A stretch of DNA of 64,000 bases from Somniosus microcephalus (Eukaryota): contig CM126209.1 in NCBI GenBank assembly GCA_052327205.1, positions 61,876,001 through 61,940,000 on the forward strand. The letters run 5' to 3'. The notes beneath the pieces were generated by a model. It did no database searches. It had not been told where the DNA came from and was given only the letters and a program-made list of their open reading frames with translations. Positions 16,935 through 60,520 of the stretch are shown in pieces. A program made the position numbers and the translations under genes. Every line of letters starts with the position of its first letter. Position 1 is the first letter of the stretch.

Positions 16935-17160
16935 ACCCCTCCAAGTCACACACCATCCTGACTTAGAAATATATTGCTGATCCTTCATCACTGGCTCAAA
17001 ATCCTGGAACTCCCTAACAGCACTGTGGGAGTACCTTCACCACATGGACTGCAGCAGTTCAAGAAGCCGGCTCACCACCACCTTCTCGAGGGCAATTAGG
17101 GATGGGCAATAAATGCTGGCCTCACCAGCGACACCCACATCCTATAAACGAATAAAAAAA
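16935..17160 (+). mobile_element. LINE 3' end fragment (CR1/L2-group), same family as 36345-36890
   Basis: cacaccatcctgact..tcctggaactccct..ttcaagaag..gggcaataaatgctggcc; the reverse complement recurs at 36345-36890. Confidence 0.65.
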
Positions 17161-17164
17161 AAAG

Positions 17165-17480
17165 CTGGGATTGTTCTCCTTGGAGCAGAGAAGGTGAAGG
17201 AGAGATTTAATAGAGCTATTCAAATGTCTTCACTGGCAGGAGGGTCAGTAACTAGAGGATAAAATCGGCAAGAGAACCAAAGGCAAGATGAGAATTTTTT
17301 TTTAAGCAAGTTATGATCTGGAATGCACAGCCTGAAAGGGCAATGGAAGCAGATTCAATAGGGAATTGGATAAATACTTGAAAGGAAAAATCTGCAGAGC
17401 TACGGGGAAAGAACAGGGGAGCGGAGCTGGCACAGGCACAATGGGCCAAATGGCCTCCTTCTGTGCTGTACCATTCTATG
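17165..17480 (+). mobile_element. CR1 LINE 3' fragment
   Basis: LGLFSLEQRR-like coding remnant and the tail gggccaaatggcctccttctgtgctgta. Confidence 0.7.
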
Positions 17481-36344: not shown

Positions 36345-36890
36345 CTCATGCGATGTGGGAGTCACTGGCAAGGCCAGCATTTATTGCCCATCCCCAATTG
36401 CCCTCAAGGAGGGTGTCTGCTTGAACCTCAGCAGTCTGTGTGGTGAAGGTACTCATACAAAGCAACTTTTTCATTTATTCATCCTTGGGATATTGGCATC
36501 GCTGGCAAGGCCAGCATTTATCGCCCATCCTAATTGCCGTTAAGGTTGTGGTGGGCCTTCTTGAACTGCTGCAGTCCATGTGGTGAGGACACTCAATGCT
36601 ATGGCGGTAGGGAGTTCCAGGATTTTGACCCAGAGACAATGAAGGAACGGCGATGCACGTCTAAGTCAGAATAGTGCGTGACATGGAGAGGAATTTGAAG
36701 GTGATGGTGTACCCATACGCCTGCTGCCCTTGTCCTTCTAGGTGGTGGAGGTGCTGCTGAAGCAGCCTTGGCAACTTGCTGCAGCGCATCCTGTAGATAG
36801 TACACACTGCAGCCACGGTACGCTGGTGGTGAAGAGAGTGGATGGTTAAGCTGGTGGATGGGGTGCCGATCAAGTAGACTGCTTTATCGG
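36345..36890 (-). mobile_element. LINE 3' fragments (two stacked 3' ends), same family as 16935-17160
   Basis: KAVYLIGTPSTSLTIHSLHHQRTVAAVCTIYRM and KSWNSLP remnants; ggcaaggccagcattta..gcccatcc..aattgcc occurs twice. Confidence 0.7.
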
Positions 36891-47962: not shown

Positions 47963-50588
47963 CTAGAAAGAGATGATGCCGTTTAGAAAACAGATGTCCT
48001 GCCTATACTTCTTCCAGTAACCAGCTAACAAAAACCATAGGTGGTGCTTGGTTTCAGGGGGTGGAGATGCAAATTTGATGCTAGAGTAAAAAATATCCTG
48101 AATGCCAGAAAATTCTATTAATTTGGCAACAGTTACTCCATACACTTCAAAATGGATGCTACTAAACAAAGGCTCATTAGTATGACTAGGTACCTTACCC
48201 TTGAAGTTGAAGGTGCTGTAATGGCTAAAATAAAAATGCAACATGTTTACAATGCTTTATATATTAGTTAACAAGATAATGTATCAGTTGGAAAGTAAAA
48301 ATGCAAGTTTAACCATAGACACCATATTGTAAAATAATACAATTTTTTGAAGGGGTGCTCTACAGTAACTTTTTTTCTGTACAACAATTTGTTGCTAAAC
48401 CTTAGGCAAAAGCAAATCTTCTGATCTTTCCATTTAAATAGCAGGCCATAAACAAAAGCCTGTATTATGGGAGCATTGACCAGTCCATCAGCAGGTCATC
48501 ATACAGTGTTTGATGGCAAGGTACTAACAAGACTACCAAGCTTTGCAAAGTACATTATTTCTTTTAAAAAAAAGAAAAAAGTTTTGGAAAGGTTGCTTGA
48601 TGGAGGTACATTGGAAAAATAAATCTGCATCACAATGTCTGGACAACTTAATGGTCTTAAAGAGCAGCATGTGAAATGCTCCATTCCTCATTTTCTTCTA
48701 AAACCAGTAAGAAAGTGGAGTTTTATGAAGTACAGAATTCTTGCAAACATGGTGGATCATTGGGCCTGAAGGAATGCCTGCAGTCCTGCACTTCATTTAT
48801 TATGCAAGACAGATTTCAAATGCAGCTCGAGGCATTTATGAATTACCTCCTGTTAACAATACTACAGTTGTAGAAATGAAATGGCTTTTTCAAACCAAGG
48901 GGAGGAGGAGGAGAGAAGAGGGCTGGAAAAAAAAAAAAAAAAGGAGGAACTGAAGCCATCACAGCCTACTTGTTACTCCTCCAGTATATTATTCCCCTTT
49001 TTACTCAGTATTAAGTGNNNNNNNNNNNNNNNNNNNNNNNNNNNNNNNNNNNNNNNNNNNNNNNNNNNNNNNNNNNNNNNNNNNNNNNNNNNNNNNNNNN
49101 NNNNNNNNNNNNNNNNNNNNNNNNNNNNNNNNNNNNNNNNNNNNNNNNNNNNNNNNNNNNNNNNNNNNNNNNNNNNNNNNNNNNNNNNNNNNNNNNNNNN
49201 NNNNNNNNNNNNNNNNNNNNNNNNNNNNNNNNNNNNNNNNNNNNNNNNNNNNNNNNNNNNNNNNNNNNNNNNNNNNNNNNNNNNNNNNNNNNNNNNNNNN
49301 NNNNNNNNNNNNNNNNNNNNNNNNNNNNNNNNNNNNNNNNNNNNNNNNNNNNNNNNNNNNNNNNNNNNNNNNNNNNNNNNNNNNNNNNNNNNNNNNNNNN
49401 NNNNNNNNNNNNNNNNNNNNNNNNNNNNNNNNNNNNNNNNNNNNNNNNNNNNNNNNNNNNNNNNNNNNNNNNNNNNNNNNNNNNNNNNNNNNNNNNNNNN
49501 NNNNNNNNNNNNNNNNNCCTGCAGCTTCTGAGGGAGTCTAGAAAGAGATGATGCCGTTTAGAAAACAGATGTCCTGCCTATACTTCTTCCAGTAACCAGC
49601 TAACAAAAACCATAGGTGGTGCTTGGTTTCAGGGGGTGGAGATGCAAATTTGATGCTAGAGTAAAAAATATCCTGAATGCCAGAAAATTCTATTAATTTG
49701 GCAAACAGTTACTCCATACACTTCAAAATGGATGCTACTAAACAAAGGCTCATTAGTATGACTAGGTACCTTACCCTTGAAGTTGAAGGTGCTGTAATGG
49801 CTAAAATAAAAATGCAACATGTTTACAATGCTTTATATATTAGTTAACAAGATAATGTATCAGTTGGAAAGTAAAAATGCAAGTTTAACCATAGACACCA
49901 TATTGTAAAATAATACAATTTTTTGAAGGGGTGCTCTACAGTAACTTTTTTTCTGTACAACAATTTGTTGCTAAATCTTAGGCAAAAGCAAATCTTCTGA
50001 TCTTTCCATTTAAATAGCAGGCCATAAACAAAAGCCTGTATTATGGGAGCATTGACCAGTCCATCAGCAGGTCATCATACAGTGTTTGATGGCAAGGTAC
50101 TAACAAGACTACCAAGCTTTGCAAAGTACATTATTTCTTTTAAAAAAAAGAAAAAGTTTTGGAAAGGTTGCTTGATGGAGGTACATTGAAAAATAAATCT
50201 GCATCACAATGTCTGGACAACTTAATGGTCTTAAAGAGCAGCATGTGAAATGCTCCATTCCTCATTTTCTTCTAAAACCAGTAAGAAAGTGGAGTTTTAT
50301 GAAGTACAGAATTCTTGCAAACATGGTGGATCATTGGGCTGAAGGAATGCCTGCAGTCCTGCACTTCATTTATTATGCAAGACAGATTTCAAATGCAGCT
50401 CGAGGCATTTATGAATTACCTCCTGTTAACAATACTACAGTTGTAGAAATGAAATGGCTTTTTCAAACCAAGGGGAGGAGGAGGAGGAGAGAAGAGGGCT
50501 GGAAAAAACAGAAAGGAGGAACTGAAGCCATCACAGCCTACTTGTTACTCCTCCAGTATATTATTCCCCTTTTTACTCAGATTAAGTG
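47943..50588. other. 500-N assembly gap (49018-49517) flanked by a near-identical ~1.07 kb direct duplication (47943-49017 and 49518-50588)
   Basis: Sequence after the gap restarts at cctgcagcttctgagggagtctag and differs mostly by small indels. Confidence 0.92.
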
Positions 50589-52505: not shown

Positions 52506-54254
52506 CTGTAGAAGAGAAAAATTAGCTGTTATTTCAGATATTCTTCAATTGCTATTGCACTGCAAAATCCCAGAAGAACAGTTATGAGATTGAATTTAAT
52601 TAACCTTGCTGGATTTCATTATTTACCAGGCAACTGGGTGAGTGAATGTATCTGTGCAACCACCTTAAGTCAGTCACATGCCCAACTGTAGTTCAAGTTG
52701 TCTACCATCAACCTGCTAAGCATGTGGGCACAAGGCCAGCACCCCACCTACAATATGATAACCACCCTCATCATATTCTTACTACTACTGGATGATGGCA
52801 TCTGAAGGAGGTTTATAAACACCCTACTTTCAGCAGAGTCCGCTCACCCTCCCAACTAATATGCGTAGCAGGTTTCTTTCCCTCCCCCCCCCCCCCCCCC
52901 AAAACAGTGCACCACAACACAAAAAAGGTCTCATCTGTAACACAGTCACTGTGGAAAGTTCTCATTCCATACATGCACAACTTTTCTAAGCAGCTTGCTA
53001 CTTTTAACCACATCACATTCTAGCAGGAGATGATAGCACTTCAAGTTTGCACCCAACTCACGAAAATCTCAAATCTACAATTTGCCCATTGTTGACAGCT
53101 CGATTGTCCCTTGTGGTGGTTCCCAAGCTGACATGTCTGTTGCTATTCCATCAAGTTTTTCCTTAAAAAGACTTCAGCACCACACCTAGCATAGCCTCAA
53201 GTTATATTACTGTATTGGACCATTTCACACTCACCCTGTACTAGTAGTTTGATATTAAATATACAGCTCTATTAATTTTGAGGGGGGGGGGGGGGGGGGG
53301 GGTGAGGAAGAGGAAGGAGAGAAATGCACAATATATAATTTTCTCCTTTTGCCTCCTAAGTTTATGTACAAAGCACAATAAAGCCCTGCATCCCACCTGG
53401 ACTCCAAGGTGTTGAAAAGCATAGATGATGCAGCTTTAAGGCCAACTATTTGGCTTAATGGCAAGTGCAGAACTAAAGGATACATGTTTCAAATTTAGTG
53501 CTCAAGTGAGACTAGAGATTAAAAAGAACATCCCCTTTGAGTAGTTGCATGTTTGAACCCAACTCAAGGAAAGACCAACTGATGCGGTGTTGATTAGCAT
53601 CTTCAGAAAAAGGAACTGGAGAAATACCAGATTAGGAACAGGTTTGGAGATAAGCCAAGTCAAGAAGTCTATGCTACCATTGTGCTAACGGAAGTGGGGT
53701 GGGATGAGGTGTAGATTCCACCCGCCACTCTGAACTGCTGCCGAACAGGTCCCAAATTATGGGAATAGCCTTTAATAACAGGGAGTGGGCCCTCTGCGTT
53801 CAAGCATCATGCCTCAGTAGTGGTGGAAACAAACAGGTCTCAAGATACTTGAGTAGATACTGCACATTTCACCAATTTTTCATACAAATAATTTAAAAAT
53901 CTTCCATCCTCACCGCTTTGTTGGCACCACTTGACTTCCTGTGGTTAGATTTGTTACATTCCCCCTCAATTGTTTCCACTATAAATGTCTATTTGCACAT
54001 TTATAATGGACACTGCTTTGTAAACTTGTCATGCTGTAATTACACCCTCCTGCCATGGTGAAACTGCAGCACCTCCACTGGTTGGGGTGGGGGTGCATGT
54101 AATTAAGTTGCGACAAGTTTACAGAGGCACTTTCTATTGTAAATGGTGGACATGGAGATTGATCATGTTAAATTAAAAAAAGGACAATGCATAACTTTAA
54201 AATGGGGATTTAATTACATCTGCTTAATCTGGTTTAACTATCTCTACATTCTAA

Positions 54255-57200
54255 CCCTAATTCAATTCAATTTTATTTGTCATATATGCAGCCGACATGT
54301 GTACTGCACAATGAAATGTTGATTAAGAGTCCTCCCAACATTGGAATAAATAGGGCATAACAATGAAAAATAATAGAAATACAGTAATAAATAATAATAA
54401 ATTATACGTTAGAGTCTTATGGCCTGGGAGTAGAAGCTGTTTCAAAACCTGCTGGTACGAGACTGTATGCTTCGGCATCTCTTACCGGACGGGAGCAGGG
54501 CGAAGAGGTTGTGTCTGGGGTGGCTTGTGTCTTTAAGGATTTTTCAGGGCCTTCCCCCGGCACCTCTCGGGGTAGATATCCTGGACAGCAGGTAGTTTAA
54601 TTCCTATAGTATGTTGTGCAGCTTTCACCACCATCTGGTAGAGCCTTGCGGTCTGTGGCGGTGCAGTGCCATGCCAGGTAGTGATGCAGCCGGACAGGAT
54701 ACTCTCGATGGTGCGAATCTGGGGGGCCATTCCAAATTTCTTCAGTTTCCTGAGGAAGAACAGGAGTTGGCATGCCTTCTTCGTTACGGCGTTGCTGTGA
54801 TGTGACCACGTTAAGTCCTCCGTAATGAATACACCCAATGATGTGCCTCAATAAATCCCGAGACTCGATGTTAGCGAAACAAAACAAGGCTTTTATTGAC
54901 TTAGATGGTAACACAGAGGAGAATGTATCTTCCATCCAGAGGTCTGCCGTACTGGATGTGCTGCAGGCTGGGCCAGCTTACATAGGAGCCAGGTATGGGC
55001 AGAGCCCTACACAGTACAATACAATGGAAAATGAAACTGAAACCAACCACAGTCACAGGCAGAGAAATACTGATGAGTGATGAATGAATATTTCATCACA
55101 CCCAGGAATTTGAAGCTTGCTGACCCTCTCCACCTCAGCCCCTTCGATGTAGATTGGGCTGTGTCCCTCCCCTTGCCACTTCCTGTAGTCCACGATCATC
55201 TCCTTTGTTTTGCTGATGTTGAGGGAGCGGTTGTTGTACTTGCACCATTCTGCTAGAGCTCTTATCTCCTCCCTGTAGCCGGTCTTGTCGCCATCTGTGA
55301 TCAGGCCTACAACGGTAGTGTCATCAGCAAACTTGATGGAGTTGTGCGTGGCCACGCAATCGTGAGTAAACGGAGTACAGAAGGGGGCTGAGCACACAAC
55401 CCTGGGGAGCTCCTGTGTTCAGGATCAGAGTTGAGGTGTTGCTGCCTATTTTCACCACCTGGGGTCTGCCTGTCAGGAAGTCCAGGATCCAGTTGCATAG
55501 GGAGGTGTTAAGTCCCAGCTCACTGAGCTTGTTGACAAGCTTGGAGGGGATAATGGTATTGAATGCTGAACTATAATCAATGAACAACATTCTCACATAG
55601 GTGTTCCTCTTATCCAGGTGTGATAAGGCAGTGTGCAGTACAGTGGCGATGGCATCATCCCTAGATCTTTTTGGGCGGTAAGCAAATTGGAGTGGGTCCA
55701 GTGTGTCAGTTAGTAAGGAGCTGATGTGGGTTTTGACCAGCCTCTCAAAGCACTTCATGATGACAGGAGTGAGTGCTATGGGGCGGTAGTCGTTTAAACA
55801 GGTTACTTGTGTTTTTTTGGGGACTGGAATAACCGATTTCATCTTGAAGGAGGTGGGGACTACAGACTGGTACAGTGAACGGTTGAATGTATCCGTAAAC
55901 ACAGCTGCCAGCTGGTCAGCATATGCTCTAAGGACACACCCAGGGATTCCATCTGGACCAGGTGCTTTGTGGGTATTTCACTCTCAAGTCTTGCTTACGT
56001 CAGCCACGGAGATTGAGAAGACCCGATCGTCCTGAGCTGCAGGTGCCCTTGTAACAGGCCAGTTGTTGTTGGCCTCAAACCGGGCGTAAAAAGTGTTAAG
56101 CTCGTCCGGGAGAGAGGCATTGCTGGGCATGACACAGCTGGGTTTCCCTTTGTAGTCTAATAGATTGTAGTCCACTCCACATCCTTCGAGAATCTGAGCT
56201 AGGAGTGTGACTCCACTTTATCGGTGTATTTTTTTTTGTTGCATTTTTGATGGTTTTTCTTAGAGGAGTACAAGAAATCAAAGTACGAGCTATGTCCCCA
56301 GAGTTGAATGCGATGGACCGTGCTTTTAGCATAGCACGATATCGGCATTTACCCATGGTTTCTGGTTGGGAAATGTTCGTACAACAATCCTCGGAACAAC
56401 GTCATCTGTGCACTTGTTTATGAAACTAATGACTGAATCTGTATATGTGTTGATGTCATTGTCTGAGGCATTCCGGAACATATCCCAGTCAGTGGAATCA
56501 AAACAAACAGTCTTGTAACATAGCGTCTGATTGATCCGACCACCGTTGTAGAGATCTCATCACAGGCTTTTCCTGTTTCAGTTTCTGCCTATAGGTGGGT
56601 AGCAGCAGGATGGAGTAGTGATCTGATTTGCCGAAGGGAGGGCCTTGTATCCATCCCGGAACAGAGTGTAAATGTGATCATGTGTTCTTGGCTCGCGTTG
56701 GGCAGGTGATATGCTGATGGTATTTAGGCAGTACTTTCTTCAGATTGGCTTTGTTGAAATCACCAGCCACGATGAATGCAGCCTCTGGATGGGAAGTTTC
56801 AAGCCTGCTAATGGTCCCATACAGCTCGTTTAGTGCCCTATTTGCTTCAGCCTGCGGTGGAATATACACCGCTGTAATGATCACGGATGAGAACTCTCTC
56901 GGGAGGTAGAAGGGGCGGCATTTGATCATCAGGTGTTCAAGATCAGGTGAACAAGAAGATGCAAGTAGTTCCACGTCGGAACACCAAGAATTGTTGATCA
57001 TAAAGCATAACTCCACCCCCTCTATTCTTCTGAGTCCTTTGTTCGGTCTAGCCGGTGAATGTTGAATCCCTCTGGTTGAATGGCCGAAGCCAGTATCGAT
57101 GGATCAAACCAAGTCTCAGTGAAAATCAAGACGTTGCAGTTTTTAATGTCTCACTGGAAGGTGAGCCTCCCCCTGAGTTCGTCCAGCTTATTGTCCAGTG

Positions 57201-57908
57201 ACTGCACATTCGCCAGGAGAATACTCGGAAGGGGGGGGGGGGGGGGGGGGGGGGGGGGTGTTCATGTCGCCTCAGCTTCACTAATGCACCTGCTCGTCTG
57301 CCCAGCTTGCGCTGTCGTCGCTTCCTGATCACAGGAATGAAGTCAGGTAAGCAGGTGGGAGGGTAGATGGTAGTAGCAGCAGAATCCCAGTTCGAAAAAT
57401 CAGGGGTAGGTCCTATATCTCCGGACGATCTTATGTCCAGAAGTGATTGACGGTCGTAGCGGATAAGCGAAGAAAACAGTACTTACAAAATTGTTTAACA
57501 ACAATAAAATAATAAAGTGGAAAGTTGTGGACGAGCTCGTAAAACAGCGGCTACCCTCATGAGCCACACAGGTCGGTTAAACAGTAGAACATTTAAAAAA
57601 CTAAACTAAATACTAAAACTAGAATGCTAAATAAATACTAAAACAGTACGATATTAAAATACAACATTAAATACAACATTAAAATACCAGTTGGGGAGGA
57701 GCTTATAAAACAGCAGCCACACAGGTCAGTTAAACAGTAGAATATTAAAAAAAAACTAAATTACTAATACTAAAACTAGAGTGCTAAATACTAAACAGTA
57801 GAATACTAAAAACTAACAGTACAATATATTAAAATACAATAATACATTAAATACAACATTAAAACACCAGTTGGGGAGGATCTCAAAACAGCAGCCACAG
57901 GTCGGCGC
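54255..57908 (-). mobile_element. Rex1/Babar-type non-LTR retrotransposon, near full length and frameshifted
   Basis: APE motif [27 protein letters not shown]; RT motifs [57 protein letters not shown]; ttcaa-repeat tail near 54260; tandem repeats in the 5' region (57480-57905). Confidence 0.88.
54839..55100 (-). mobile_element. 262-bp solo LTR inserted in the Rex1 RT
   Basis: TG...CA termini; flanks CCCAA/CCCAG form a 5-bp TSD with one mismatch; AATAAA on the minus strand near 54892; splits the FKFLGVFITEDL coding segment. Confidence 0.7.
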
Positions 57909-58383
57909 TGAAATCACTATTTCACCTGAATACCACGCGACTCCCATGTTCAAAGCCACAGGAGATTAATATCTCAAAAATGTTATGTATGCACACTTGT
58001 TTAATTACCTTGCTGTCACCATTTTTTGTCATGCTTTTGTCAACATTTAACACTGAAACTGCCCTTGTAAACATTGACTGTAATGATTTGGTTTCAGGCT
58101 TTGGCCACTAGGTGACACTCTGGCACATCTCCCAACAATGTCTAGCTACTCAATCTGCCATGCAGTTTCTCAGCCAATCTACAAAAAATCTTGTGGACAA
58201 AAGGTAAGCAATAGACCAATACAGCAACAAAAAAATGTAGATCGGAATGGGCAGTAAAAGAAACGAATATGGCTACTCCTCTGACTCGCCAGGACCAAGG
58301 TCACAGGGCATCTACTAGTACATCAAAAACAATTGCAAGAAGTCACACAACACCAGGTTATAGTCCAACAGCTTTATTTGAAC

Positions 58384-58420
58384 TCACAAGCTTTCGGAGC
58401 GCTGCTCCTTCTTCAGGTGA
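58384..58420 (-). ncRNA. Mirror copy of the minimal hammerhead motif, in the MYOF pre-mRNA sense
   Basis: Exact reverse complement of 58585-58621. Confidence 0.65.
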
Positions 58421-58584
58421 AGTGGAGAAATGCATAAAGACACAGCTTATATAGTCAGAGAATCATGTCAGATGTTTACAGGTAACCTTTCCAACTGCCA
58501 TTTATGGCAGTTGGAAAGGTTACCTGTAAACATCTGACATGATTCTCTGACTATATAAGCTGTGTCTTTATGCATTTCTCCACT

Positions 58585-58621
58585 TCACCTGAAGAAGGAG
58601 CAGCGCTCCGAAAGCTTGTGA
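58585..58621 (+). ncRNA. Minimal type I hammerhead ribozyme motif (Penelope type)
   Basis: tcac-CTGAAGA-a-ggagc agc gctcc-GAAA-gc-TT-gtga: stem I, CUGANGA core, stem II, GAAA, palindromic vestigial stem III and UH site. Confidence 0.65.
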
Positions 58622-58753
58622 GTTCAAATAAAGCTGTTGGACTATAACCTGGTGTTGTGCGACTTCTTGCAATTGTCCACCCCAGTCCAACTCTGGCATC
58701 TCCACACCATCAAAAACAATAATTGCAGTTAATGAAACAGAAGCAGATCCTAC

Positions 58754-58822
58754 CTTGACTTGAAGGTTGATGGTTTGATTCCACTCAGGATTTGCATTTT
58801 TTTCTATTATCTTTGTACAAAG
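58754..58822 (-). CDS. MYOF: Myoferlin exon, C2C (LCTKIIEKNANPEWNQTINLQVK)
   Basis: tag/gtagg splice sites, 69 nt. Confidence 0.95.
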
Positions 58823-58924
58823 CTACAACAGAACAAAGAGTCAGTGTGGCACATGCAGGGCAATGGGTAGGAAGCTAGAATTCCATGCTGAAGTCACAGG
58901 ACATGGACACGGCCAGACTCTCAC

Positions 58925-59028
58925 CTTTTTCCCAGCAAAGCCAACTTCCACATATGGGTCCACGAGGTTTTTCTTGTCAGTCCCTGTTCCAAATAATGAC
59001 TTGATAGTTTCTGCAAAGGCATCATCCA
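58925..59028 (-). CDS. MYOF: Myoferlin exon, C2C (MDDAFAETIKSLFGTGTDKKNLVDPYVEVGFAGKK)
   Basis: tag/gtgaga splice sites. Confidence 0.95.
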
Positions 59029-59234
59029 CTAAAGAGAGGAACAGAAGGACATGAGTTTGATCACAACTTGCCACTAATGTGTTTCAATAGTGCATTAATT
59101 TCAACAGTTAAAGAAAGCCAGAAATAACCAATTGACAGATAGACGTCTAAAGAACAAGACAGATTAAACACCACACACAATCTAGTATAAATGCAGTGGA
59201 TACCCTGCAACAGTAACAGACACTAAAATAGAAC

Positions 59235-60520
59235 CTAACACACACATCAAAGTTGATATGGCCAAACTGGAGTAAGGAGGGCTAGGGAGAAAAGATAGGG
59301 AAAGTGGTCAAAAGCAGTATTGAAGAGGAAGCCTTTTTGAAGGTGGAGACATAGCAAGGCAGCACAGTTGGGGAAGTGAATTACTGAGTGCAGATGCAAG
59401 ATGGCTGATGGTTCTACCACCCATGGTGAAGTGGGGAAAGGGGAAAACACACAGTAGACCAGAATTGATATAGAATAGTGGAGCTCTGTCCAAGTTGAGG
59501 CATATGGTAAGGGTGGAGCTCAGGAGGCTGTTGAGCATTGGAAGAAGTGGAGCCTGGCTATGGATCAACATTTCACCAGTGATTGGGGTAAGGCAAAAAT
59601 GGGTGACATTTGGGAGATGGAATTAGATGATTTAAGGCTCAGCTCAGGACCAAAGAAAGCACCATGGCTCTGCACCATGGGGTGACATTGAAGTAAACAA
59701 TCAGAAAGTGTGATGGAACCGAGGCCTAAGGCGCAATGTTTGACATGAGCCAAACAGAATGGCTTCAGTCTTCCCAATGTTAAGCTGAAGATTGCAGCTC
59801 ATCCAGGCTTGATGACGGTCAAGCAGGTGGATAACACAGCCAGAGTAAGGGAACCAGCAGGGGCAAAGTTGGGCATCAGCTGACCCTATGCTTACAATGT
59901 CACTAAGCAGCAACATAGAGGAGCAGTCCAATGATGAAACCCTGGAGCACACAGGTGACTGAACAAGCATGGGAAGCCTCAGTGCAGGAGATGGGGTGTT
60001 AACATTGGGACAAGCAAGAATGGAATTATGGGAGGGCAATGCCATAGAGTTGATGCAGCTGACTACCAAGATGATGAGGGAGAGAATAGGGACAGTAGAT
60101 AACACACCATTACAATTGCATAGGATATCATGTGCATCTTTGACCAGGTTTCTTGGTCAAATGGAAAGCAGATTGAAAGTAATTGAATAGGAAGTGGCAG
60201 AAGAAATTTGGGTGGTGCTACACATTTAGAATCTAGGGAGGAAGAGGTAGAAAATGGGCTAGTAGTTAAAGATGAGGAAATCATGGCCTATTTGAATAGA
60301 AAAGGTGGGGGGTGGGTGGTGGAAGAGAGAAATGTCAAAGGAGAGGGTACCTGCTGACAATATCAGCTATCACTGGGTGTGGGGAAGAGGTACTCGAGTG
60401 GTCAAGAGCTGGGGCAGGAAGGGGGCAAGAAAGCAGTTGGTGGGTCTAATAAGTGCTAGGGATGAAGATGTCTAATAAGTGCTAGAGATGGCGATCAAGG
60501 GCAGGAAGATGGTGAGGTAG
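59235..60520 (-). mobile_element. Old L2-clade LINE fragment
   Basis: WMSCNLQLNIGKTEAILFG remnant and an L2-like 3' region; boundaries approximate. Confidence 0.6.

What the first reader, a model, noticed from the sequence alone, without database searches (positions are those of the whole stretch)
58329..58676. 348-bp near-perfect palindrome with a hammerhead ribozyme motif in each arm, ~77 nt from a MYOF splice donor
Seen directly: 173-bp inverted arms (one mismatch, 2-nt centre), a flanking catcaaaaacaat direct repeat, no coding sequence, and in each arm cac-CTGAAGA-a-ggagcagcgctcc-GAAA-gc-TT-gtg plus an AATAAA. Established: Penelope-like elements carry minimal hammerheads in their pseudo-LTRs, often form inverted LTR structures, and such minimal ribozymes are thought to cleave as dimers. 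Inference: this is a tiny non-autonomous ribozyme-bearing retroelement, recently inserted or homogenised. Either strand's transcript contains one ribozyme plus its perfect antisense, so hairpin formation would sequester it. In MYOF pre-mRNA it would form a long dsRNA (ADAR or Dicer substrate) and place a potential cleavage site and poly(A) signal next to the 69-nt exon; the DNA could extrude a cruciform.
Basis: partly seen in the sequence, partly recalled or inferred. Interest (0 to 1): 0.7.

Follow-up and report, generated by a model that had tools for sequence, protein, structure and literature searches.

The report
Mirror-image Penelope stub in myoferlin intron
The palindrome is real but ordinary: it is two back-to-back end-pieces of a common Penelope-type jumping gene pasted once into a myoferlin intron, one of thousands of such mirror-image insertions in this genome, likely built at the moment of insertion and probably harmless.

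Summary
Observation confirmed, boundaries corrected. The insert is 387 bp: the 348-bp palindrome, a 34-nt one-sided 'tail' and a 13-bp target duplication. It ends 33-43 nt from the MYOF donor, not 77. It is no read artefact: two related organisms hold the empty site, and a third holds both junctions. It is not a self-copying mini-element: it is a 5'-truncated, head-to-head insertion of an autonomous 3.15-kb Neptune-type Penelope-like element (intact 891-aa ORF; 6,575 exact ribozyme copies). Its centre is unique in the genome. Tailed plus tail-less inverted arms of 0.1-3 kb are the family rule (64 of 73 pairs), a layout already published. The minimal hammerhead core is intact and family-wide; cleavage is untested, and no genomic sign of cutting was found. 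Likely mechanism: both nicked target strands prime on one source's RNA at two start sites, and the truncated cDNAs are joined by microhomology. The two arms of an insertion share rare variants (33 of 70, against 1.0 expected). No RNA evidence bears on MYOF. This scan reported the same layout before (21 notes, at least 7 genomes).

The parts
58321..58333 (+). Target-site duplication, left copy (13 bp); its last bases double as microhomology with the tail-less arm
   Evidence: empty sites in organisms C and D keep one copy
58334..58505 (-). Tail-less inverted arm: 3' end (pLTR) of the PLE from position -208 to about -37 (0 = window 58708)
58383..58421 (-). Minimal type I hammerhead motif, left arm (sense to MYOF pre-mRNA); predicted cut between 58388 and 58387
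   Evidence: mirror of 58584-58622
58504..58505 (.). Central junction: 2-nt overlap (AT) between arms truncated at -208 and -204; unique in the genome
58504..58710 (+). Tailed arm: 3' end of the PLE, -204 to the CAT that begins the element's ORF start codon context
58552..58558 (+). TATATAA, candidate TATA box of the pLTR (mirror 58447-58453 on -)
   Evidence: sequence; function inferred
58580..58586 (+). Initiator-like CCACTTC 30 nt after the TATA box; arm 5' ends pile up here across the family (-125 to -127)
   Evidence: start site inferred
58584..58622 (+). Minimal type I hammerhead: stem I TTCAC/GTGAG, CUGAAGA, extra A, 5-bp stem II, GAAA, palindromic GC, UU; predicted cut 58617/58618
   Evidence: activity untested
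58627..58632 (+). AATAAA, family-wide (mirror 58373-58378 on -)
   Evidence: use untested
58677..58710 (+). 34-nt PLE 'tail', present on one arm only
   Evidence: feature described in PMC8557442 and PMC11167929
58708..58720 (+). Target-site duplication, right copy; first 3 nt (CAT) shared with the element end
58754..58822 (-). 69-nt MYOF exon (C2 domain, 23 codons); donor at 58753; host intron 52506-58753

Best explanation
This is a single, dead-on-arrival insertion of two head-to-head 3' ends of an autonomous Penelope-like retrotransposon, likely made when the element's enzyme primed reverse transcription on both nicked target strands and the two short cDNAs were joined end to end. Shown: parent element, boundaries, 13-bp duplication, tailed/tail-less asymmetry, empty sites, unique centre, and rare variants shared by the two arms of one insertion. 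Inferred: the GIY-YIG domain makes nicks about 13 nt apart; one strand primes at the tail end (3-nt microhomology CAT), the other at the internal start about 36 nt upstream; both copy RNA of the same source; both stop near -205; the 3' ends anneal over AT and are filled in. The hammerhead and AATAAA are passengers of the pseudo-LTR; in MYOF read-through RNA the ribozyme would be paired to its antisense and is predicted to be inactive. Identity about 0.97, two-primer mechanism about 0.65, no host function about 0.9.
For: Parent: the arm has 1,299 first-look candidates, 40 scored, at 98% identity; upstream of many lie RT+endonuclease frames; L041 holds an 891-aa ORF with RVT_1, E 9e-10. Layout: among the first 100 of 6,575 exact ribozyme matches, 24 neighbour pairs within 7 kb are head-to-head, 3 are tandem, none tail-to-tail; spacings 188-5,445 bp. 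Of 85 loci examined, 73 have adjacent inverted arms; 64 of 73 pair a tailed arm with one ending at -25 to -50; 52 of 73 have a 12-14-bp duplication; 42 of 73 overlap by 1-10 nt at the centre. Either arm can be the longer (tailed 34, tail-less 21, within 12 nt 13, of 68), which fits two primers. One source: 33 of 70 variants seen in exactly two arms lie in one locus, 0.99 expected. Real: contigs of organisms C and D join 58320 to 58708 (387 bp absent); organism B has both outer junctions. In vitro precedent: a PLE protein nicks and extends both strands and starts at two sites bounding the tail (PMC11167929).
Against: Near-equal arms are in excess (10 of 41 within 12 nt, 1.8 expected, p<1e-4), and this locus is one of them; fold-back copying explains that just as well. 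Both arms here share three non-family bases: one unique in the genome, one in 8 matches, and one found in 29 against 9,104 copies that on the left is the last base of the target duplication. That hints at arm-to-arm copying at this locus. No listed contig spans the centre, and junction contigs reach only 21-24 nt into the element, short of the tool's 31-nt bridging rule. The in vitro precedent is a Poseidon-clade element, not Neptune.
Confidence: 0.85

Rival explanations
1. Same element, but the mirror arm was made by fold-back: one cDNA stopped at -208, its 3' AT paired back, and it copied itself; or one arm later overwrote the other (quasi-palindrome correction).
For: Excess of near-equal arms. 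The top strand reads as cDNA then a turn at AT-TT-AT. Three shared non-family bases in 168 bp, one matching target DNA; the family rate of shared private variants predicts 0.2 (p about 0.02 for two or more). Self-priming was proposed in PMC3846280.
Against: Across the family near-equal and unequal pairs share private variants at the same rate (7/5,554 vs 26/20,250 bp) and diverge alike (38/5,554 vs 162/20,250). The apparent 9 of 11 mirror matches shrink to 2-3 convincing loci of 64 on inspection: two are common subfamily variants and three are isolated matches. Fold-back alone does not explain the precise tail-less end near -36.
Confidence: 0.3
2. A dedicated non-autonomous double-ribozyme mini-retroelement that is copied as a 348-387-bp unit.
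For: Short ORF-less palindromes are frequent; 45 are centred just upstream of the ribozyme. Non-autonomous PLE derivatives (retrozymes) are described (bioRxiv 2026.07.22.740005).
Against: Only 5 palindromes are centred near -204 and each has a different junction. Sizes are continuous. Most of the 45 short ones have different centres, though a few centres recur. Retrozymes are tandem direct repeats, not inverted.
Confidence: 0.03
3. The hairpin, 33-43 nt into the intron, alters MYOF processing: skipping of the in-frame 69-nt exon, A-to-I editing, small RNAs, or premature cleavage and polyadenylation.
For: Position and a very stable predicted hairpin (z -35). The insertion is kept in two organisms. 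Each arm carries an outward-facing TATA/initiator-like site.
Against: No positive evidence. The insertion is young (A-B flanks differ at 5 of about 1,170 letters), thousands of similar inserts exist, and donor and exon are intact.
Confidence: 0.07
4. Fold-back sequencing or assembly artefact.
For: No listed contig spans the centre; perfect palindromes are a known artefact class (own knowledge).
Against: 13-bp duplication, one-sided tail, collinear MYOF exons on both sides, empty sites in two organisms, both junctions in another organism.
Confidence: 0.01

Closest known systems
Insertions of endonuclease-bearing Penelope-like elements with an inverted 5'-truncated copy, a 30-40-bp tail and a target duplication (PMC8557442; Pen2a_Av in PMC3846280; D. 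virilis Penelope in PMC2377424)
   Same: Head-to-head inverted pLTR, tail on one end only, inverted arm shorter by about the tail length, short duplication, TATA plus initiator-like site in the pLTR.
   Different: Here both arms are pLTR only (no ORF); duplication 12-14 bp against 8-10 bp in Adineta; thousands of young copies allow statistics.
Neptune-clade PLEs (Cx2-5CxxC linker before the GIY-YIG domain; PMC8557442)
   Same: [quoted passage not shown]
   Different: No tree was built; no named Repbase family could be assigned with these tools.
Minimal hammerheads of metazoan PLEs (Cervera and De la Pena 2014, PMC4209133)
   Same: CUGANGA and GAAA boxes, extra nucleotide between 9 and 10.1, G10.1-C11.1, palindromic 15.2-16.2, no helix III, short helix I.
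   Different: Helix II is 5 bp; N17 is U; two copies face away from each other, so the dimer fold of tandem copies cannot form within one strand.
Poseidon element of Anolis carolinensis, PAc (Frangieh et al. 2024, PMC11167929)
   Same: Two reverse-transcription start sites bounding the tail; both target strands nicked and extended; ribozyme cleavage not needed for insertion.
   Different: In PAc ribozyme and tail overlap the ORF start; here the tail ends at the start codon and the ribozyme lies about 90 nt upstream. Different clade.
Animal non-LTR retrozymes (bioRxiv 10.64898/2026.07.22.740005)
   Same: ORF-less, pLTR-derived, hammerhead-bearing, 50-970 bp.
   Different: Retrozymes are tandem direct repeats amplified as families; this is a one-off inverted truncation.

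Membership tests
EN+ Penelope-like element insertion | [quoted passage not shown] | tested here: met
   891-aa ORF in L041; RVT_1 E 9e-10. Pfam gave no hit on the last 167 aa; the Atlas put residues 730-891 next to clusters with GIY-YIG in 18-22% of members, score 0.95-0.96; motif VVYLIRC...WYIGET seen directly.
EN+ Penelope-like element insertion | Partial tandems forming pseudo-LTRs | tested here: met
   587 exact tail+ATG junctions; L032, L033, L041, L084, L099; 3,148-bp spacing.
EN+ Penelope-like element insertion | Inverted 5'-truncated copy with a 30-40-bp tail on one end | tested here: met
   This locus and 64 of 73 inverted pairs.
EN+ Penelope-like element insertion | Target-site duplication with an empty ancestral site | tested here: met
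   13 bp here; 12-14 bp in 52 of 73; empty sites in organisms C and D.
Neptune clade | Cx2-5CxxC linker between RT and endonuclease | tested here: met
   PCHSNLCNTC / CKTC; definition from PMC8557442. Nematis shares the motif.
Neptune clade | Placement in an RT phylogeny | not tested
   No reference PLE proteins were fetched.
Minimal type I hammerhead (min-HHR) | Intact core C3 U4 G5 A6 N7 G8 A9, G12 A13 A14, A15.1-U16.1, H17 | tested here: met
   Both arms; in 111 arms not selected on the ribozyme each core position is kept in 108-111, and only N7 varies by subfamily (A 43, C 43, T 22, G 3).
Minimal type I hammerhead (min-HHR) | Helices I and II form, supported by compensatory changes | tested here: inconclusive
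   The minimum-energy fold gives both helices but z is only -0.74; no compensatory change in 111 arms or in the 100 listed of 19,172 degenerate matches; Rfam gave no hammerhead hit at E up to 5.
Minimal type I hammerhead (min-HHR) | Self-cleavage as dimer or with protein help | not testable with these tools
   Indirect test negative: no pile-up of template 5' ends at the cut site; 52 of 69 run more than 10 nt past it.
Non-LTR retrozyme / non-autonomous amplified family | Many copies of the same unit, typically in tandem direct repeats | tested here: not met
   Centre junction unique; arms inverted; sizes continuous.

The most novel reading that the evidence does not exclude
This young family records how Penelope elements build their mirror halves in vivo. 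A dimeric enzyme primes both target strands on RNA from one source, at two sites about 36 nt apart; the cDNAs often run to the same RNA 5' end, including a transcription start directly at the ribozyme's first base; and end-joining with microhomology or templated patches fuses them. The locus is one clean specimen; the statistics (33 of 70 shared doubleton variants, 5-fold excess of equal arms, 36 of 88 arm ends at -125 to -127) would be genomic support for a step that the 2024 in vitro work left open.
Probability: 0.4. Interest if true: 0.5.

Novelty: new member of a known kind. Interest (0 to 1): 0.2.

Why it matters
The locus itself matters little: it is one of thousands of inverted PLE stubs, a layout in print since at least 2008 (PMC2377424, PMC3846280, PMC8557442) and noted repeatedly by this scan. 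It could serve as a presence/absence marker (organisms A and B carry it; C and D do not). The family is more useful than the copy: it is young, has intact ORFs and thousands of insertions, so the open question of how PLEs finish integration and make inverted copies can be tested on this genome by counting junctions.

Tried and rejected
Rfam: no hammerhead model matched; the 7 hits (microRNA, lncRNA) are below gathering score, and the microRNA ones reflect the long hairpin. RNA: no RNA holder listed. In two raw RNA runs of the same species label, reads on the element carry family letters rather than this locus's (58622: 64 of 64 and 110 of 111; 58669: 29 of 29 and 47 of 48), MYOF exons are almost uncovered and no MYOF splice joint is listed: no evidence either way on expression, editing, splicing or cleavage. 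Ribozyme-cut templates: 70 loci given, 69 scored, 58 with a visible 5' end; 5 fall at -85 to -97, none at -90, no denser than neighbouring stretches. General arm homogenisation: rejected. Flank-to-tailed-arm copying as a rule: 4 of 9 mirror matches, 3.2 expected, in 10 variant-selected loci; 1 of 3 in 47 unequal pairs; the 9 of 11 in 64 near-equal pairs is inflated by how the arm end was defined. A truncation hot spot at this centre: not seen (5 loci). Pfam on the endonuclease region: no hit. Literature searches: (0 papers with all of Penelope-like, microhomology, inverted, polymerase theta, truncated). None of the papers read gives a junction census of a vertebrate PLE, but the library lacks most subscription papers and I opened no supplements. 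A sequence look-up in earlier findings gave nothing, nor did a word search on truncation at the start site.

Full report
OBSERVATION. The palindrome is as described: arms 58329-58501 and 58504-58676, 173 nt, one mismatch, and it is the only such long inverted repeat in the window. The ribozyme-like motif occurs twice, once per strand, against 0 in 100 shuffles. The translation of the upstream exon matches myoferlin better than dysferlin. Further ferlin-like exons lie collinearly on the minus strand on both sides, located with recalled motifs. The host intron is 52506-58753. The insert is therefore 387 bp plus one copy of a 13-bp duplication, ending 33-43 nt from the donor.

IT IS REAL. Four contig sets were laid on 57900-59400. 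In organisms C and D one contig joins 58320/58321 directly to 58708/58709: the empty site. Organism B has contigs entering the element from both flanks (to 58354; from 58687), and organism A has the right junction. These reach 21-24 nt into the element, below the tool's 31-nt bridging rule, and no listed contig spans the centre; X1 may be the assembly's own sample. Flanks differ at 5 of about 1,170 letters between A and B and at 58 of 1,095 and 47 of 1,097 from C and D. The insertion is thus younger than the split from C and D and probably older than the A-B split. One mismatch between arms fits that age.

WHAT IT IS. The tailed arm matches many places at 98% (1,299 candidates, 40 scored). Upstream of many of them lie long frames with YIDD, a C-x4-C-xx-C linker and a GIY-YIG-like end. 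L041 holds a complete 891-aa ORF with RVT_1. Pfam did not recognise the endonuclease part; the Atlas gave GIY-YIG clusters as neighbours, a lead only. L032 shows the full anatomy: inverted stub, partial tandem, ORF starting at the ATG where the tail ends, terminal pLTR. The unit is 3,148 bp. The exact 38-nt ribozyme occurs 6,575 times, a degenerate form 19,172 times, and the tail-ATG junction 587 times. By the linker motif the parent is Neptune-type (PMC8557442); no tree was built. That the host is a shark is my recall of this repeat family and the wording of earlier scan notes, not a tool result.

THE MIRROR LAYOUT IS THE RULE. Of the first 100 ribozyme matches, 24 neighbouring pairs within 7 kb are head-to-head, 3 tandem and 0 tail-to-tail, with spacings of 188 to 5,445 bp. 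I mapped 85 loci, most of them picked because a pair was visible, so this is no estimate of frequency; 73 had adjacent inverted arms. Of these, 64 pair a tailed arm with an arm ending at -25 to -50 (mostly -34 to -37), 52 have a 12-14-bp duplication, and 42 overlap by 1-10 nt at the centre. Only 5 palindromes in the genome are centred near this one's centre, each with its own junction. So the unit was not copied as a unit. The literature describes this layout: an inverted 5'-truncated copy and a 30-40-bp tail at either end (PMC8557442, 12 passages read); Pen2a_Av with inverted pLTR, tail and duplication (PMC3846280, 12 passages); variable inverted repeats in D. virilis (PMC2377424, 12 passages).

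HOW IT WAS LIKELY MADE. Purified PAc protein nicks and extends both target strands, starts at two sites that bound the tail, is predicted to be a dimer, and does not need ribozyme cleavage (PMC11167929, parts 1-2 of 4 read). The genomic pattern fits. The tail-less end is sharply placed. Either arm may be longer (34 against 21, with 13 equal within 12 nt, of 68). Both arms come from one source: 33 of 70 variants seen in exactly two arms lie within one locus, 0.99 expected. Several centres carry templated repeats of nearby sequence (L003, L005, L087), which resembles polymerase-theta end joining (own knowledge; not tested). Against a pure two-primer model, near-equal arms are 5-6 times more common than chance (10 of 41, 1.8 expected). 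They may be cDNAs that reached the same RNA end, or fold-backs. This locus leans a little to arm-to-arm copying: its arms share a base unique in the genome, one seen in 8 matches, and one seen in 29 against 9,104 copies that on the left is the last base of the duplication. Family-wide, however, equal and unequal pairs share and accumulate variants at the same rates, and only 2-3 of 64 near-equal loci show convincing target-matching bases in the tailed arm.

THE RIBOZYME. The motif has every feature of the metazoan minimal hammerhead (PMC4209133, parts 1-2 of 4 read). No compensatory change was seen, and the fold is not more stable than shuffles. In that paper a single minimal motif showed no cleavage and dimers low cleavage. 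No pile-up of template ends at the cut site was found. In MYOF read-through RNA both arms pair completely. A TATATAA at 58552 and an initiator-like site 30 nt on, two bases before helix I, suggest a pLTR promoter. In support, 45 palindromes are centred just there against 18 matches at -170, and in 44 of the 45 (one duplicate left out) 36 of 88 arm ends fall at -125 to -127 against 4 at -129 to -131. Enzyme pausing or local microhomology could also cause this.

HOST EFFECT. None shown. The two RNA runs do not cover MYOF exons, and reads on the element come from other copies. The exon is in frame (23 codons), so skipping would be a small in-frame loss; that is possible but unsupported.

COMPARISON AND VERDICT. 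It is a member of the EN+ PLE inverted insertions (all four features tested and met). It carries a min-HHR by sequence, with activity untested. It is not a retrozyme or an amplified non-autonomous family (bioRxiv 2026.07.22.740005, abstract and first part of Results read). Earlier notes of this scan describe the same layout (21 notes in at least 7 genomes, 8 shown, one from this genome); I reached the reading before opening them and took one paper from them. Supplements were not opened; those of PMC11167929 may bear on inverted products. Novelty: new member of a known kind. Interest 0.2; the family-level mechanism, if confirmed, 0.5.

Noticed in passing
window 58552-58586 and loci L227-L270: TATA box plus initiator-like site immediately before the ribozyme; arm 5' ends pile up at -125 to -127 (36 of 88), suggesting that element RNAs begin at the ribozyme's edge.
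   Followed up: partly
L003:1177-1222, L087:591-649, L005:2103-2118: Central junctions filled with short templated repeats of nearby element sequence, resembling polymerase-theta end joining.
   Followed up: no
L031:3755-3764, L083:2797-2802, L102:580-581: Exactly symmetric insertions are centred on short natural palindromes within the element.
   Followed up: partly
window 54100-57900, minus strand: Broken LINE with endonuclease-like and RT-like frames, preceded by AT-rich 150-180-bp repeats at 57520-57900; RNA reads on it carry other copies' letters. Family not determined.
   Followed up: partly
window 58002-58103: About 100-bp dispersed repeat: contig depth several times that of the flanks in all four DNA sets.
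   Followed up: no
window 58100-58205, plus strand: Stretch bounded by tttcag and gtaagc that looks like an exon antisense to MYOF; no splice joint seen.
   Followed up: partly
window 16936-17167 and 36352-36691: Two diverged (76-79%) inverted copies of a dispersed repeat 19 kb apart.
   Followed up: no
window 49018-49517: 500-N assembly gap inside MYOF.
   Followed up: no
L062 and L063: Two loci 128 kb apart with identical insertion geometry, probably a segmental duplication or duplicated haplotype.
   Followed up: no
L041:3428-6103: Intact 891-aa PLE ORF; a candidate for in vitro work on a Neptune-type element.
   Followed up: partly
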